Shown here one piece after another: positions 1,348 through 52,272 of a stretch of 64,000 bases of DNA. The notes beneath the pieces are model-generated. The model was given only the letters and a program-made list of their open reading frames with translations, had not been told where the DNA came from and ran no database searches. Made by a program: the position numbers and the translations under genes. Position 1 is the stretch's first letter. Every line of letters starts with the position of its first letter. Origin of the DNA: Eledone cirrhosa (lineage: Eukaryota); the NCBI GenBank assembly GCA_964016885.1, contig OZ024759.1, positions 36,828,001-36,892,000 of the forward strand, in the 5' to 3' direction.

Positions 1348-1671
1348 AAGAATAATATGGTACATTGATTACTCAATGAATATAGTTTTACAATAGATTA
1401 AAAGCACTCTACAATACTGGAATTGAACCATCAAGACCGTTGAGATATGTCATACATCAATTCGTGTATTTTATCTGACGAGGACGTACTGAAAAAAAAA
1501 CAGCACAGTACCTTTAAAATATATATAATAAAACATATTTTGATTATGTGAATGTATCCATTTATTAATATTTTGAATAATATTAATAACTCAAGAAAAA
1601 ATAACTGTAGAGTGCTTTTAATCTATTGTAAAACTATATTCATTGAGTAATCAATGAACCATATTAATCTT
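1348..1671 (+). mobile_element. Non-autonomous PLE-like fold-back element, family A, with degenerate hammerhead
   Basis: ~65-bp inverted arms (1348-1413 / 1606-1671). The spacer holds ATTTTAT-CTGACGA-GGACGTACTG..CAGTACCTT-TAAAA-TATATA-TA-ATAAAA (GAAA mutated). Ends in (TA)n; homologous to 24000-24260 and 36628-36935. Confidence 0.75.
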
Positions 1672-2114
1672 ATATATATATATATATATATATATATGAA
1701 AAAATGGCGTGCTGCGTGGTTGCAAATGGGTTAGATATGAATAAAATTAATCCTTCATCAGTGATCTTCCAGCCTTCATTGGTATTTCATCGCTTTAAAG
1801 ATCATATACCTCTGGTTGGTGCGAGCAACGGCTAAAGAAAGTCGTTGGGACACGTAAATACTCCAAAACTTGTTGAGTGCTTTATATCAGTTATAAAATA
1901 TTTACTTGTTGTAACCCAACAATTTTAAATAAAACTTTGCATATATATATATATATATATATATGATGTAGGAGGTGAGTTTTATTGTAGCACAATAAAG
2001 CAATGCAAATATCGGATAAGTAGCACTCTACAGTTTATAGGACTGGAGTATATATATGTTGATTTAAAACTTCACTGCTCACAAGTGTTTTTTAAGCTTC
2101 ATATCATGTCTCCC

Positions 2115-2185
2115 TATTTTATCTGATGAGAACGCAAATATCATCCCATGATGATATTTGTTTTTGAAATGTGCGTAATAAAATA
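2115..2185 (+). ncRNA. Type I hammerhead ribozyme motif
   Basis: TATTTTAT-CTGATGA(2123)-stem II CAAATATCAT/ATGATATTTG-GAAA(2166)-T GTGC G-TA-ATAAAATA; stem I fully complementary. Confidence 0.8.
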
Positions 2186-2394
2186 CTTGGAACTCTTTTA
2201 ACCATCTGTTAATCTTATATATATATATATATATATTGTTATACTTTGGGAGGGTCATGTTGCCAATAATATATATATATATATATATATATATATATAT
2301 ATATATATATATATATATATAAATAAAGAATCAGAACCCCGACGGCATAGCTCAAGCCGTTTCGACAGCTATTTCTGGACTCCATATATATATA

Positions 2395-2645
2395 TGAATG
2401 AAGGAGTTACAAGCCGTTAAAATAAGTTCTTTATAAAGAACTTATTTTAACGGCGTGTAACTCCTTCATTCATTTGCTTATTCCTGCTCTGCTTAAACTC
2501 TCCGCTAAATATTAACTTCCTCTAATATTTAACTCTGCTAATCCAAGCATTGAGTGCACCACGCTTCGGTGAGTGGCATTTAGTCATCTGTATCGCACCT
2601 CTTTGTCACTCTCTGCTTCATCCTCTCTTACGATTCTTATACCCT
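2395..2645 (+). mobile_element. Palindrome plus tail, PLE-like fragment in (TA)n
   Basis: Near-perfect ~78-bp palindrome 2395-2473 centred on TTCTTTATAAAGAA, then a tail with TTGAGTGC (2550); TA tracts on both sides. Confidence 0.55.
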
Positions 2646-2734
2646 ATAATATATATATATATATATATATATATATATATATATATATATATATATATAT
2701 ATATATATATATATATATATATATATATATATAT

Positions 2735-3168
2735 AATATATTAACAAATGGAAACTATATTTATAAAACCTTATTTATTCTATTATACATATTTCAAGGG
2801 CCACCAAGGCAGATTATGGTGCGCTTTCATCAAATAAAATATAATACAGATTAGTTTTATAAATAAATGTTGACATACCCTGAAAAAATGCAACCTTAAC
2901 GGTTGGAGCTTCCTGGATAAGCTTCCGTTAAGGTTGCCAATATTTATTTATAAAACTAATTAGTATTATATTTTATCTGATGAAAGCGCACCATAATCTG
3001 CCTTGGTGGCCCTTGAAATATGTATAATAGAATAAATATGGTTTTATAAATATAGTTTCCATTTGTTAATATATTGTATATTTACTCAAATAATTTGTTG
3101 AGTGCTTTATATCAGTTATAAAAATATTTTAGCTTGTTGTATCCCAACAAATTAAATATAACCTCTGC
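2735..3168 (+). mobile_element. Fold-back hammerhead element, family B
   Basis: Long inverted repeat ~2735-3075. HHR on + at 2969-3034 (CTGATGA 2977, GAAA 3015); mutated TTGATGA copy on - at 2776-2841; tail TTGAGTGC then (TA)n. Confidence 0.8.
2969..3034 (+). ncRNA. Type I hammerhead ribozyme motif
   Basis: TATTTTAT-CTGATGA-AAGCGCACCA..TGGTGGCCCTT-GAAA-T ATGT A-TA-ATAGAATA. Confidence 0.78.
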
Positions 3169-49090: not shown

Positions 49091-49961
49091 ACACACAGTA
49101 GTATATATACACAGTGTGTATATTGTTGTCAGTTTTTATTGCTTTAATCAACACAGTCCTTTCCGTTAATCCTTCACCAAACCTTATCCGAAATTATTAA
49201 AGCGGTTGTGAACCTTAAATCTTTCCAGATGTCCTGCTCCGCCCTTACACACCCTGTTTTCTCTTCCCTTCTCTCTCTCTCTCTCACACACTATTTCTTT
49301 CTCTCTCTGTCTCCCCTTCTCTCTCACTTTCTTTCTATCTATCTCTCTCTCTCTAGATATCTCTTGAAAAGTCTCTGTCTGTCAAGATATATATGTATGT
49401 ATGTATATATATATATATATTTATATATTTGTGTGTATATATAGGTATATATATATATATATACAAACATACATATATATATATATGTGTGTGTGTGTGT
49501 ATATAGGTATAATTATGTTTGTGTGTTTTCGGAAGGTAAAATTCTGTTTCTCCCACCCCTTAATCCTGTTTCTCTCAACAAAAGCACGGGGTGTGCAACA
49601 TTTCAGCTCAATCAGACAATCAAATGCCTTAAAGTTGCAACATAGTATACGCAACGATTAATTCTGTTCAAAAGCGGTATATCGTTCACTATCTTGACCA
49701 TTTTCTTTTTTCTTCTTAGAAAAATTTATATGGACACATCTAGACAACCCCAGTAAATGTTTAAAAACGTTCTGAATCAAATTTACCAATAGTTAATTTG
49801 AAAAATTCCTGAAATCACATGAAAAACTTAAATATTGGGTTTTCTTAATAAAGCACACGTCTTCTATAGGAGAAACATATTTATTTACAACAATAATTTC
49901 TATAGATTCAAAAATATAATGTCAACACTGAACACTGAATATTGAACATTATTTTTGCATA

Positions 49962-50148
49962 GGGCTGTGGATTGGCAGTTCCGGTAAAGGGTCGGACGCC
50001 ATGATTTGACGCATAGAGTTACGGCCCTTGCCATTCTGAGTTCAAATCCAGCCGAGGTTAACTTTACCTTTCATCCTTATGGGGTCGATAAAATAAAGTA
50101 CCAGTAATGTACTGAGTAATTGCTGGCCTTGTGTCAAAAGTAGAAACA
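49962..50148 (+). mobile_element. SINE family 1, full length, with 14-bp TSD
   Basis: ATTATTTTTGCATA at 49948-49961 and 50149-50162. Confidence 0.92.
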
Positions 50149-50169
50149 ATTATTTTTGCATAAGAGAGA

Positions 50170-50500
50170 ATTTAGTGGCAGTTGGGTATATTTTACGGTT
50201 TTCGGTAAGAATCTGTAAAACAAATTGTTTCTCAGTTTCATCTTTTGTGTGAATGTTATTGTAATCCTGAATGAGTTTGACACCTCTTTCTGCAACATCA
50301 TTCACAACAACTGTCTTCTCAAGTTTTTCAAGTCCACTTTTGTAACCAGGATCATCCTTCCATTTTGAAGGGTCTTTGTCGAGGAAATCGGTGCTGATAG
50401 AAAATTCTTGTGAAGAAAGTTTTTGTACCAGGAGTTACAAAAGAGGGAAACTCGATGTTTGTAAAGGAAGAAAAGTCAGACTGGGGGATGGAAGGAAGTG
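50170..50500 (-). pseudogene. DNA transposase C-terminal remnant (Sola2-like)
   Basis: VVVNDVAERGVKLIQDYNNIHTKDETEKQFVLQILTENRKIYP; the superfamily assignment is from recollection of the VND.AERGVKL motif. Confidence 0.55.
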
Positions 50501-52190
50501 GAGAGGATAGAGGGGTTATCTGACATAGAACTGCAGTAGAGTGGGGGGGGGGGATTGTTGTTACTGTCATTGCCGTTGTTGTTGTTGTTGTTATTATTGC
50601 TATTGTTACAGTTGTTGTTGTTGTTGTTATCACCTCTCTACAATGGTAAAGTGTCAGCCATGAAATCTCTTCTCAGTCAGTTTTATGACCGACCACCAAA
50701 TATCTGATGGATCACTTCTTTGGGACCTCTTATCTTGTTGTTGTTGTTGTAGCCCTATATAACCACCACCACCATCCCCATCTTAATCTCCACCACCATC
50801 TTAAATTTCACCACCACCACCACTATCCCAAACACCGCCATCATCATTATCGTTATCATCGCCGAATTCTTCGTCGCCATGTTCTTGAAGTTAATGTTGT
50901 TGTTGTTGTTCTTCTTCTTCTCATCACACTAATAGAACCATAACCATCATCATCACCATCATCATCACCATCTCCATCATCACCATCATCATCACCATCA
51001 TCATCACCATCTCCATCGTCCTCATTATCACCATCTTCATCATCGCCATTTCCGTTCTTCACCGTTACAAACTTCGTCTATCACGACACCACCGCCACCA
51101 CCATCATCAACACCGCCACCACCATCATCAACACTAATACCACCACGACCAACATTATCAGCACCACCACCACCACCACCACCACCACTATCAACACCAC
51201 CACCACTATCAACACCACCACCACCATCAACACCACCACCACCACCATCAATACCACCGCCGCCACCACCGCCGCCACCATCAACACCACCACCACCACC
51301 ATCAATACCACCGCCGCCACCATCAACACCACCACCACCACCATTATCAACACCACCACCACCACTATCAACACCACCACCACCATCAACACCACCACCA
51401 CCATCAACACCATCAACACCACCACCACCACCATTATCAACACCACCACCACCGCCTCCATCAACACCACCACCGCCACTATTTTAGTGAGATGATAGAA
51501 TTATGATGTGTAGCCAGGACAAAACATTGATTTGTTGAGTCAACAACATTTATATGGAATAAATGGTGGGGGGTAGTAGTGGTGGTGGTGGTGGTGGTGG
51601 TGCTGGTGGTAGTGGTGTTGCTGGTAGTGGTGATGGTGTTGCTGGTGGTGGTGGTGGGTGGTTGTGGTGGTGGTGGTGGTGCTGGTATTGACCATACTGA
51701 GAGTGGATGAGGATTAAAGAAGGAAGAAGCGAAAGAAAGGAAATGGAGAGGTGATGATGATGAGGAGGAGGGGGAATAGGAAGAGGTGGGGGCTAGCGAG
51801 GCAGGAGGGGGCGATGGTATGTTTGTAATGGTGGCTAGTCTGTGAGAGGTGTCAATTGTTTTATGACTTTTAATTGCCGTACTGATAAGGTGAATGGCTT
51901 CTCTTACTGATGAGAGCTGATCATGTTGTTGTCGTTGTTATTGTCGTTGTGGTTGTTGTTGTCGTTGTGGTTGTTGTTGTTGTTGTCGTTCTTATTGTGG
52001 TTGTTGTTGTTGTTGTCGTTCTTATTGTGGTTGTTGTTGTATTCGTAGCACTATACAACCACCATCTTAAACTTCACCATCACCACCACTACTACCGCCA
52101 CCACCACCATCTTAAACTTCACCGCCACTATCACCACCGTCGTCATTATCGTTATCATCGCTGTCTTCTTCGCTGTCTTCTTCGCCGCCA

Positions 52191-52272
52191 TGTTCTAGTC
52201 CTGTAGAAGCCATTTCTATATTAAATATTTATACTCTCTGCTATGTATTGAGTACCTTACTTACTGTGGTAT
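52191..52272 (+). mobile_element. 5'-truncated family C fragment
   Basis: GTTCTAGTCCTGTAGAAG..CTATGTATTGAGTACCTTACTTACTGTGGT. Confidence 0.75.

What the first reader, a model, noticed from the sequence alone, without database searches (positions are those of the whole stretch)
1404..52255. Conserved GAGTRC motif a fixed distance before the 3' TA junction in otherwise unrelated families
Seen: GAGTGC/GAGTAC on + at 1610, 1875, 2552, 3100, 11589, 29916, 30131, 37022, 38650, 43183, 52250, and on - at 1404, 2023, 14868, 20177, 31055, 36528, 38326. In most cases it lies ~45-90 nt upstream of where the island ends in a microsatellite. Where an HHR is present it lies on the same strand, downstream of it, or in the inverted tail copy. 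Flanking sequence is not shared between families. Inference: a cis signal for 3'-end formation, RT recognition or an internal promoter common to these PLE-type elements.
Basis: partly seen in the sequence, partly recalled or inferred. Interest (0 to 1): 0.75.

Follow-up and report, generated by a model that had tools for sequence, protein, structure and literature searches.

The report
Conserved hairpin in Penelope-element tails
The six-letter motif is one half of a small conserved RNA hairpin carried in the "tail" of Penelope-like jumping genes and of their many short non-coding parasites, and it likely tells the element's reverse transcriptase where to start copying.

Summary
All 18 listed GAGTRC sites exist, but the bare hexamer is at chance frequency (32 seen, 27.9 expected). 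What is real is larger: in 15 of the 18, ACTC lies 11-19 nt upstream and pairs with GAGT, enclosing a 3-5 bp helix of variable sequence and a 2-nt bulge (mostly TT). This stem-loop sits 32-114 nt (median 46.5) before a (TA)n junction, in about ten families with no other detectable similarity. One family is the end of a very abundant Penelope-like element with Hydra-clade features. There the hairpin lies in the "tail", between two alternative junctions with (TA)n: S, about 6 nt before it, and L, 38 nt after it. Insertions with an inverted arm typically carry one S end and one L end. Relatives at 35-43% protein identity from 79 metagenome contigs carry the same hairpin as GCTC...TT-GAGCACT (67 of 79 loci), so the first base pair covaries. 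Best reading (inferred, untested): an RNA signal that places the reverse transcriptase at two internal start sites, as shown in vitro for an anole Penelope-like element in 2024. It is a new variant of a known kind. I found no published description of this hairpin.

The parts
1589..1615 (+). Hairpin, family C (ACTC...GAGTGC); tail runs to the (TA)n junction at about 1670
   Evidence: short and long ends of family C
1860..1880 (+). Hairpin, family B; inner helix CAA/TTG, TT bulge; (TA)n 61 nt downstream
2023..2049 (-). Hairpin, family H; inner helix CAGT/ACTG, TA bulge; (TA)n 59 nt downstream (at about 1964)
2532..2557 (+). Hairpin, family F; inner helix TGCT/AGCA, TT bulge; (TA)n 92 nt downstream
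   Evidence: (best window hit of model R1, 34.3 bits)
3084..3105 (+). Hairpin, family B; (TA)n 64 nt downstream; hammerhead core boxes upstream
11453..11502 (-). Inverted arm of the family A insertion; its outer end is the short (S) end
   Evidence: sequence
11508..11546 (+). Predicted minimal type I hammerhead of family A (CTGATGA 11508-11514, GAAAC 11527-11531, predicted cut after 11546). Read by eye; not called by Rfam.
   Evidence: Rfam negative
11574..11594 (+). Hairpin, family A (ACTC...GAGTAC). S site at about 11556/11557, L junction with (TA)n at 11635/11636.
14868..14894 (-). Hairpin, family D; inner helix TGCT/AGCA with a longer 3' bulge; (TA)n 46 nt downstream
29900..29921 (+). Hairpin, family B; (TA)n 63 nt downstream
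30108..30136 (+). Hairpin, family G; inner helix TGGGG/CTCCA, TT bulge; (TA)n 77 nt downstream
30373..30397 (+).
   Evidence: (30.9 bits)
31055..31076 (-). Hairpin, family A-like; its tail runs into a CA-type microsatellite, not (TA)n
36528..36549 (-). Hairpin, family E (tail of the autonomous Penelope-like element); inner helix GTCC/GGAC, 1-nt bulge; tail about 36490-36555
37002..37027 (+). Hairpin, family I; (TA)n 48 nt downstream
38326..38346 (-). Hairpin, family A; L junction at 38284/38285; an inverted arm on the other side
43167..43188 (+). Hairpin, family E; tail 43161-43226, S site at 43160/43161, L junction at 43226/43227
52233..52255 (+). Hairpin, family A; tail cut 14 nt after the motif by a TA/TG repeat
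1404..1409 (-). GAGTGC of a 5'-truncated family C copy; the ACTC half is missing
20177..20182 (-). GAGTGC of a 5'-truncated family D copy; the ACTC half is missing
38650..38655 (+). GAGTAC of a degenerate family A-like copy (CTTC in place of ACTC; no (TA)n within 140 nt)
18331..18367 (+). Possible further variant (GCTC-TGTAAA...TTTACA-TT-GAGCTACT); weak model hit
   Evidence: (12.5 bits, E 0.94)

Best explanation
GAGTRC is the 3' half of a conserved stem-loop (RCUC, a 3-5 bp helix of free sequence, a loop, a 2-nt bulge, then GAGYRC) in the 'tail' of Penelope-like retroelements with Hydra-clade features and of their short non-coding derivatives. It is likely the RNA signal that the element's reverse transcriptase binds in order to start cDNA synthesis at two fixed internal sites on either side of it.

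Shown here:
- the hairpin and its covariation;
- its place between two alternative junctions with (TA)n: S, 4-13 nt 5' of the stem, and L, usually 31-48 nt 3' of it;
- its continuity with the 5' UTR and ORF in full-length copies;
- the frequent pairing of an L end with an inverted arm that ends at S;
- its conservation in relatives at 35-43% protein identity from other sources.

Inferred:
- The endonuclease nicks both strands of a (TA)n target.
- Each 3'-OH primes reverse transcription on element RNA held through the hairpin, one at S (hairpin not copied) and one at L (hairpin copied as the 'tail').
- The two cDNAs meet and are joined, which would give the inverted arm.
- Short non-coding families that keep the hairpin borrow the same enzyme.
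For: Structure:
- ACTC is present in 15 of the 18 listed sites and at that spacing in none of the other 14.
- The summed inner-helix length for 14 family groups is 51, against 21.4 +/- 4.2 in 5000 loop shuffles (maximum 37).
- With a fixed 2-nt bulge, inner pairs 1-4 are paired in 84, 95, 81 and 76% of 37 unique loops, with several pair types. Other offsets give 5-71%, apart from one pair at 84%.
- On 85 distinct model-aligned hairpins, 97.1% of cells pair, against 79.0% shuffled and 20-58% when slid. 5 of 8 pairs change on both sides. The first pair is G-C in 64, A-U in 20 and other in 1.

Position:
- 46 of 59 occurrences are (TA)n-adjacent, against an 8% baseline.
- In 30 loci of the autonomous element, 15 end at L with the hairpin tail, 10 end at S without it, 4 had no anchor and 1 was other.
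- Both ends occur in families A, B, C, E and I.
- In full-length copies the tail runs straight on into the 5' UTR and ORF.
- Of 36 testable L-ended insertions, 18 have a left end that is an inverted copy stopping 5-13 nt before ACTC, 4 stop further upstream, 14 are not inverted, and 0 run past the hairpin.

What the element is:
- The ORF has DKT, YRDDG, SCHP, a CxCX5C linker and VIY...YVG with no cysteine between them.
- Its profile aligns to a canonical RVT_1-positive element of this genome at 96.5% probability, E 9.4e-10.

Other sources:
- GCTC-N7..24-GAGCRC gives 126 sense hits in 67 of 79 loci, against 10 antisense. The last two loop letters are TT in 62, TC in 16 and TA in 8 of 87 loops. 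The next base is T in 122 of 126.
- S-type (TA)n junctions lie 39-59 nt after the hammerhead, while hairpin 1 starts at a median of 55 nt. L-type junctions lie 31-43 nt after hairpin 1.

Literature (PMC11167929, parts 1-2 of 4 read): the anole element's protein cleaves and extends both strands, starts reverse transcription at two adjacent internal sites in a stem-loop, and the genomic tail is the stretch between them.
Against: - There are no RNA or biochemical data here.
- Folding energies are unremarkable: z from -0.5 to -2.6 for 12 tails, and the hairpin appears in the minimum-energy fold, in the expected or a shifted register, in about 7 of the 12.
- The outer stem is invariant in sequence except for its first pair. 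That fits recognition of a sequence, and so possibly of DNA, as well as recognition of a structure.
- 40 other Penelope-like loci of this genome that mostly end at (TA)n lack the exact ACTC...GAGTRC motif in the 3' stretch examined, so it is not universal.
- The L distance ranges from 32 to 114 nt.
- In the autonomous element here a weak second hairpin lies 86 nt past L. A 'start just 5' of each hairpin' rule, which fits the relatives, therefore fails here.
- The alignment was fitted to the model, and related copies inflate the cell counts.
- 14 of 36 L-ended insertions have no inverted arm.
- Rfam does not call the hammerheads.
Confidence: 0.6

Rival explanations
1. The conserved letters act in double-stranded DNA as a recognition site for the element's GIY-YIG endonuclease or its zinc-finger linker. 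This would guide homing next to existing copies and so build tandem and inverted arrays.
For: CTC/GAG and the following RC(T) never vary in 85 distinct hairpins. PMC11167929 (part 2 read) reports earlier work in which the Drosophila virilis Penelope endonuclease needed the tail for recognition and cleavage of a plasmid target. Insertions here often abut one another in the same (TA)n tract.
Against: The inner helix and the first outer pair keep pairing through changes on both sides. About 18 of the paired cells are G-U wobble pairs, which pair on the sense strand only. Most junctions are with plain (TA)n, not with another tail. S-ended copies carry no hairpin at their 3' end.
Confidence: 0.15
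2. The hairpin serves the RNA itself and not cDNA initiation. It could be a platform that helps the nearby hammerhead fold or cleave, a stability element, or a 5' UTR translation element of the ORF.
For: In relatives it lies 41-66 nt after the hammerhead. There are usually two copies, and the listed 5' ends place them before the start codon. PMC11167929 found the anole hammerhead to be protein-assisted and suggested that protein binding at the initiation site helps it fold.
Against: ORF-less families of about 130-250 nt keep it. Many copies keep the hairpin but only half a hammerhead or none. Its tie to the two junction sites is not explained by this reading.
Confidence: 0.12
3. It is an internal promoter or another transcription signal carried by each copy, as the first reader also suggested.
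For: Non-coding copies would gain from carrying a promoter. Penelope promoters are placed in the pseudo-LTR in the literature (as cited in PMC11167929).
Against: A DNA promoter does not need compensatory base-pair changes. In L-ended copies the motif lies 32-114 nt from the 3' end, so it would drive transcription out of the element. No RNA data were available.
Confidence: 0.05
4. It is a chance hexamer multiplied by the amplification of a few repeat families, with no function.
For: Hexamer frequency equals expectation. At the cluster level there are 31 sense and 28 antisense clusters. Many copies are near-identical.
Against: About ten families have no other similarity. Covariation is found. 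The motif is conserved in 67 of 79 loci from other sources at 35-43% protein identity.
Confidence: 0.03

Closest known systems
The 'tail' and internal reverse-transcription start sites of the Poseidon element of Anolis carolinensis (Frangieh et al. 2024, PMC11167929; parts 1-2 of 4 read)
   Same: [quoted passage not shown] Both have a stem-loop at the site and signs that both target strands are used. Both have a hammerhead just upstream and AT-rich targets.
   Different: There the stem-loop is described as AC-rich and lies 111-118 nt inside the ORF, and the tail is 30-40 bp. Here the hairpin is a defined RCUC...UU-GAGYRCU motif in the 5' UTR, and the tail is about 60-125 nt. Many families and sources share it, and the targets are (TA)n. 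Nothing here was tested at the bench.
Hydra clade of Penelope-like elements (Craig et al. 2021, PMC8557442; passages and section 11 read)
   Same: [quoted passage not shown] It has a CxCX5C linker, DKT in place of DKG, hammerhead boxes, and insertion into (TA)n.
   Different: The main text of that paper has no occurrence of 'hairpin' or 'stem-loop'. Its supplements were not seen. Clade membership was not tested by phylogeny here. RWR stands where RWK is described.
Shared 3' stem-loops of stringent LINE/SINE pairs such as eel UnaL2 and UnaSINE1 (recalled, not looked up)
   Same: A short conserved stem-loop near the copied end, followed by a simple repeat, is shared by an autonomous element and by non-coding elements that borrow its reverse transcriptase.
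   Different: Those start at the RNA 3' end. Here the starts are internal, at two sites, and the enzyme is a telomerase-like Penelope-type RT with a GIY-YIG nuclease.
Animal non-LTR retrozymes (Cervera and de la Pena 2020, PMC7229834, passages; Li et al. 2026 preprint 10.64898/2026.07.22.740005, abstract and term search)
   Same: Short non-coding hammerhead-bearing repeats thought to be mobilised by Penelope-like elements.
   Different: Retrozymes are described as tandem arrays that give circular RNAs. The copies here are dispersed in (TA)n, many with an inverted arm and a tail. Neither text mentions a tail hairpin.
Telomerase RNA hairpins that bind TERT and bound the template (recalled)
   Same: A telomerase-related reverse transcriptase would use a nearby helix to fix where copying starts or stops on an internal template.
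   Different: There is no repeat-addition cycle here. The analogy is functional only and untested.

Membership tests
Penelope-like element 'tail' (stretch between two internal RT start sites) | Extension present at only one end of an insertion | tested here: met
   Of 36 testable L-ended insertions, 18 have an inverted left arm that stops 5-13 nt before the hairpin, and none runs past the hairpin. Full-length copies L163, L164, L165 and L168 have the tail on the inverted left copy and a short right end.
Penelope-like element 'tail' (stretch between two internal RT start sites) | Tail sequence is internal to the unit and continuous with what follows in tandem or full-length copies | tested here: met
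   In L159, L163, L164 and L168 the tail runs directly into the 5' UTR and ORF with no (TA)n between.
Penelope-like element 'tail' (stretch between two internal RT start sites) | Two alternative 3' junctions bracketing the tail | tested here: met
   15 L, 10 S, 4 without anchor and 1 other among 30 loci. Both ends occur in families A, B, C, E and I. S-type and L-type junctions occur in relatives.
Penelope-like element 'tail' (stretch between two internal RT start sites) | Tail length of 30-40 bp (descriptive, from PMC8557442) | tested here: not met
   The tail is 68 nt in family E and about 60-125 nt in the others.
Penelope-like element 'tail' (stretch between two internal RT start sites) | Reverse transcription starts at these sites | not testable with these tools
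   This needs a biochemical assay. No RNA run was listed.
Penelope-like elements (RT plus GIY-YIG) | Single ORF with a Penelope-type reverse transcriptase followed by a GIY-YIG nuclease | tested here: met
   hhalign of the profile of 59 relatives against a canonical RVT_1-positive ORF of this genome gives probability 96.5%, E 9.4e-10, over 371 columns through RT motifs, SxHP and GIY-YIG. Pfam and PDB sequence searches on the ORF itself found nothing. Atlas neighbours carry GIY-YIG and RVT_1.
Hydra clade of Penelope-like elements | No CCHH cysteines between GIY and YIG; CxCX5C linker; DKT in place of DKG | tested here: met
   Read from the L159 ORF: VIYEAVITSNRPNEPQEVKSYVG, CSCPKPEAC and SDKTNN. 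The CxCX5C pattern also appears in the profile consensus.
Hydra clade of Penelope-like elements | Short unit (<3 kb), hammerhead, insertion into (TA)n | tested here: met
   The repeat distance is 2577 nt in L159. CTGAAGA...GAAAC boxes are present. (TA)n junctions are present. The hammerhead is not called by Rfam.
Hydra clade of Penelope-like elements | RWK motif; placement inside the clade on an RT tree | tested here: inconclusive
   RWR is seen where RWK is described. No named Hydra-clade reference sequences were at hand, so no tree was made.
Type I hammerhead ribozyme (minimal Penelope-type variant) | CUGANGA and GAAA core boxes, with helices I and II and a cleavable NUH site | tested here: inconclusive
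   Boxes and helices were read by eye for families A and E. Both boxes lie within 170 nt upstream in 14 of 46 copies. No Rfam match at gathering score or at E <= 0.01. Cleavage is untested.
Animal non-LTR retrozymes | Tandem hammerhead repeats that give circular RNA | not tested
   Window copies are dispersed in (TA)n, several with an inverted arm. No RNA data.

The most novel reading that the evidence does not exclude
A portable RNA 'address' of about 25-35 nt (RCUC, a free helix, a UU bulge, GAGYRCU) is what a telomerase-like Penelope reverse transcriptase, acting as a pair on both nicked strands of a (TA)n target, uses to start cDNA at two fixed sites, one on each side of the hairpin. This one rule would explain the enigmatic 'tail', the one-short-one-long ends, the inverted arms and the pseudo-LTRs of these elements. 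It would also explain how some 10^5 non-coding mini-elements in this genome hijack the enzyme.
Probability: 0.35. Interest if true: 0.8.

Novelty: new variant of a known kind. Interest (0 to 1): 0.62.

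Why it matters
How Penelope-like elements choose where to begin reverse transcription is barely understood. The only biochemical study I found (2024) showed two internal start sites in one vertebrate element and placed the protein-binding region only roughly.

Here natural variation does the mutagenesis. About ten families and 67 of 79 loci from other sources keep one small stem-loop with invariant letters, a fixed 2-nt bulge and freely covarying pairs, exactly between the two junction sites. 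That gives a precise, testable candidate for the cis element.

It also gives:
- a simple account of the tail and of the one-short-one-long ends;
- a marker for finding non-coding passengers of these elements, roughly 170,000 copies here by extrapolation from 33 in 580 kb;
- a possible minimal template tag if such enzymes are developed for targeted insertion.

Tried and rejected
- **Rfam.** At gathering score there was no match in the window. At the E-value threshold the output was swamped by microsatellite look-alikes of miRNA families and showed no hammerhead among the rows seen.
- **First flank clustering.** Clustering by shared 10-mers collapsed 738 of 850 flanks into one cluster and was discarded. 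It was redone with blastn.
- **Window ORFs.** Eight ORFs gave no Pfam family.
- **Other Penelope-like loci.** 40 loci found through PF01541 have no exact ACTC...GAGTRC match in the 3' stretch scanned, so they are not the partners.
- **Exact motif in relatives.** ACTC...GAGTRC matched only 5 of 79 loci, all inside the protein match. This led to the GCTC...GAGCAC form.
- **Protein searches.** Pfam and PDB sequence searches of the ORF or its profile found no RT or nuclease.
- **Start rule.** 'Each start site lies just 5' of a hairpin' fits the relatives but not the element here, whose weak second hairpin lies 86 nt past L.
- **RNA evidence.** No RNA holder was listed; no reads were laid.
- **Structure.** No fold search was made and nothing rests on it.
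- **Earlier findings.** Nothing for this genome and nothing on this hairpin.
- **Literature.** Searches found no description of this hairpin. Supplements of PMC8557442 and PMC11167929 were not opened and may bear on this.

Full report
**1. The observation**

All 18 listed positions are exact GAGTRC matches. The hexamer itself is ordinary. There are 32 matches on both strands against 27.86 +/- 5.0 in dinucleotide shuffles, and 26 of 100 shuffles reach 32.

Its position is not ordinary. 18 of the 32 lie in sense orientation within 120 nt upstream of a (TA)>=6 junction, against 7 in antisense.

In 15 of the 18 sites the tetramer ACTC, the reverse complement of GAGT, lies 11-19 nt upstream. None of the other 14 window matches has it at that spacing.

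The three listed sites without it are two 5'-truncated copies (1404-, 20177-) and one degenerate copy (38650+).

**2. Is it more than family amplification?**

The window lies in a 3.0-Gb genome. I took 58 stretches of 10 kb at round coordinates on 18 contigs and analysed them with the window, 644 kb in all.

- ACTC-N9..22-GAGTRC occurs 59 times. 46 have (TA)5 20-130 nt downstream, while 8.0% of random positions do.
- The 11 control stems of the same base composition give 4-26 occurrences, with 0-7 next to (TA)n.
- In the 580 kb of random sequence alone there are 33 such hairpins in 22 of 58 stretches. That is about 57 per Mb, or roughly 170,000 genome-wide by extrapolation.
- Among 648 blastn clusters of (TA)n flanks, the bare hexamer is not strand-biased (31 against 28). 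The extended motif is in 13 sense clusters, which reduce to about ten families.
- Ten family representatives share no detectable similarity outside the hairpin. 0 of 45 pairs have z > 3 downstream, and 1 of 45 upstream (B with C).

The hexamer fails it.

**3. It is a stem-loop**

Directly after ACTC comes a 3-5 bp helix whose sequence differs between families. Examples are TGGGG/CTCCA, TAAGG/CCTTA, GTCC/GGAC, GCC/GGC, CAGT/ACTG, TGCT/AGCA, TACT/AGTA and CAA/TTG. Before GAGT there is a bulge of mostly two bases, TT, TA or TC.

- For 14 family groups the summed inner-helix length is 51, against 21.4 +/- 4.2 for shuffled loops (maximum 37 in 5000).
- With the bulge fixed at 2 nt, inner pairs 1-4 are standard pairs in 84, 95, 81 and 76% of 37 unique loops, with several pair types each. 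Other offsets give 5-71%, apart from one pair at 84%.
- Folding energies alone are unremarkable. z ranges from -0.5 to -2.6 for 12 tails, and the hairpin is in the minimum-energy fold, in the expected or a shifted register, in about 7 of them. The case rests on covariation, not on stability.

**4. What the elements are**

The window has no recognisable coding part. Searching the genome with Pfam GIY-YIG gave thousands of candidates. The 40 loci I read are Penelope-like elements with a C-terminal nuclease, and most end at (TA)n. None has an exact ACTC...GAGTRC match in the 3' stretch scanned.

Family E of the window (43183+, 36528-) turned out to be the end of another, extremely abundant element, with 74,398 first-look candidates.

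- Its ORF reads DKT, YRDDG, FLD, SCHP, a CSCPKPEAC linker, and VIY...YVG with no cysteine between.
- Pfam and PDB sequence searches do not recognise it.
- A profile of 59 relatives aligns to a canonical, RVT_1-positive Penelope-like ORF of the same genome with 96.5% probability (E 9.4e-10). The 371 aligned columns run through the RT motifs, SxHP and GIY-YIG.
- These features, with a unit of about 2.6 kb, hammerhead core boxes and (TA)n targets, match the description of the Hydra clade in PMC8557442 (section 11 read). I made no tree.

**5. The hairpin lies in the 'tail', between two junction sites**

In 30 loci of this element the outcomes were:

| 3' end | Loci |
|---|---|
| L: body, then a 68-nt extension with the hairpin, then (TA)n | 15 |
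| S: (TA)n directly after the body, 6 nt before where the hairpin would start | 10 |
| Anchor not found | 4 |
| Other | 1 |

In full-length copies the extension is not terminal. It runs straight on into the 5' UTR and ORF. S and L are therefore two internal points of a tandem-type unit.

Both kinds of end occur in families A, B, C, E and I. Families D, F, G and H had too few copies to tell.

The ends also tend to come in pairs. Of the 46 L-ended insertions, 36 could be tested:
- 18 have a left end that is an inverted copy stopping 5-13 nt before ACTC, that is, at S;
- 4 stop further upstream;
- 14 are not inverted;
- none runs past the hairpin.

Conversely, four full-length copies with an S right end carry the tail on their inverted left copy.

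This is the 'tail at only one end' of Penelope-like elements noted in PMC8557442 (passages).

**6. Conservation in other sources**

The ORF has 1080 relatives at E <= 1e-5. I fetched 79 metagenome contigs encoding relatives at 35-43% identity.

- The exact ACTC...GAGTRC is absent from their untranslated parts. It hits 5 loci, all inside the protein match.
- Their 5' ends show GCTC-N-TT-GAGCACT.
- GCTC-N7..24-GAGCRC occurs 126 times in sense in 67 of 79 loci against 10 in antisense, most often twice per locus.
- The last two loop letters are TT in 62, TC in 16 and TA in 8 of 87 unique loops. The next base is T in 122 of 126.
- The first pair of the stem is thus A-U here and G-C elsewhere.
- The G-C form also occurs next to (TA)n in this genome (5 of 9 occurrences), including window 30373-30397. 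Stems with T or C as the first base are at background level.

A covariance model built from 17 ungapped examples finds 13 known hairpin sites in the window at E <= 0.5, plus a weak possible variant at E 0.94. It misses families E and C. It finds 111 sites in 100 sources. On these:
- 97.1% of cells pair, against 79.0% shuffled and 20-58% when slid;
- 5 of 8 pairs change on both sides;
- pair 1 is G-C in 64, A-U in 20 and other in 1.

The alignment is fitted to the model and copies are related, so these numbers lean towards the structure. The regex-based counts in section 3 do not share that bias for the inner helix.

In the relatives:
- hairpin 1 starts 41-66 nt (median 55) after the hammerhead;
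- eight S-type (TA)n junctions lie 39-59 nt after the hammerhead;
- six L-type junctions lie 31-43 nt after hairpin 1, and none lies after hairpin 2.

**7. Mechanism**

PMC11167929 (parts 1-2 of 4 read) shows the following for the anole Poseidon element in vitro:
- the protein cleaves and extends both target strands;
- reverse transcription starts internally at two adjacent sites in a stem-loop, without homology to the cut DNA;
- the genomic tail is the stretch between the two starts.

The anatomy here is the genomic image of that process. There are two junction sites bracketing a conserved hairpin, often one of each kind per insertion, with the left arm readable as a cDNA primed from the top strand at S and the right arm as one primed from the bottom strand at L.

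I therefore read the hairpin as the RNA element that the reverse transcriptase binds to set both starts. The non-coding families would be passengers that keep only this element, plus part of the hammerhead. Binding, initiation and the joining of the two cDNAs are inferred; none was tested.

Points against or left open:
- the outer stem is invariant in sequence, which also fits recognition of duplex DNA by the nuclease (rival 1);
- L varies from 32 to 114 nt;
- 14 of 36 insertions have no inverted arm;
- a weak second hairpin in the element here lies 86 nt beyond L;
- Rfam does not call the hammerheads, and both core boxes are present upstream in only 14 of 46 copies.

**8. Novelty**

The tail, (TA)n targeting, hammerheads and internal initiation in a stem-loop are known. 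A defined, covarying hairpin shared by the tails of one clade and its non-coding passengers was not in what I could search.

- Six full-text searches found nothing on it.
- PMC8557442 has no 'hairpin' or 'stem-loop' in its main text.
- PMC7229834 and the 2026 preprint do not mention a tail hairpin.
- Supplements were not opened, and Repbase was not available.

I rate it a new variant of a known kind.

Noticed in passing
window 7241-11452, 3712-4539, 25870-26632 and others: The window is extremely rich in microsatellites, including a (TA)n tract of 4.2 kb. Perfect (TA)>=6 runs, merging runs within 30 nt, sum to 12,396 of 64,000 bases. These tracts are the landing sites of the elements described.
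   Followed up: partly
window about 14823-14900 (+) and about 38200-38266 (+): Another repeat family (...ctcgtccatggatctc...gggaa.ttacccgccc / cccaccc) ends at a short (TA)n. In both places a hairpin tail (families D and A) abuts the other side. It has no ACTC/GAGTRC hairpin. Its class was not determined.
   Followed up: no
window 27152-27487: A tandem repeat of a 58-bp unit, 5.8 copies, 93% matches. Unrelated to the finding.
   Followed up: no
window 53105-54835 (-): An open frame of 576 codons, the longest outside the microsatellites, has no Pfam match.
   Followed up: partly
L089-L128 (own genome): At least four other Penelope-like families with a C-terminal GIY-YIG also mostly end at (TA)n, but with quite different 3' ends and no ACTC/GAGTRC hairpin. 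Pfam RVT_1 was confirmed on the two ORFs checked. Whether they have their own tail hairpins was not examined.
   Followed up: partly
L159:3962-3989: The autonomous element here has a weak second hairpin-like site (GGCTT...GAGAGCGCTCTA), followed at once by TATATAT, 86 nt beyond the L site. Relatives elsewhere have a clear second hairpin 22-53 nt after the first.
   Followed up: partly
L169:454-471 and L181:692-709 (metagenome relatives): An internal (TA)9 run sits between hairpin 1 and hairpin 2, ending just before hairpin 2, at the position where L-type junctions fall in other relatives.
   Followed up: no
L163, L164, L165, L168 (own genome): Full-length copies show the composite pattern known for Penelope-like elements: an inverted 5'-truncated copy, a partial direct copy acting as a pseudo-LTR (found in three of the four), then the main copy. 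The tail is on the left inverted copy and the right end is short.
   Followed up: partly
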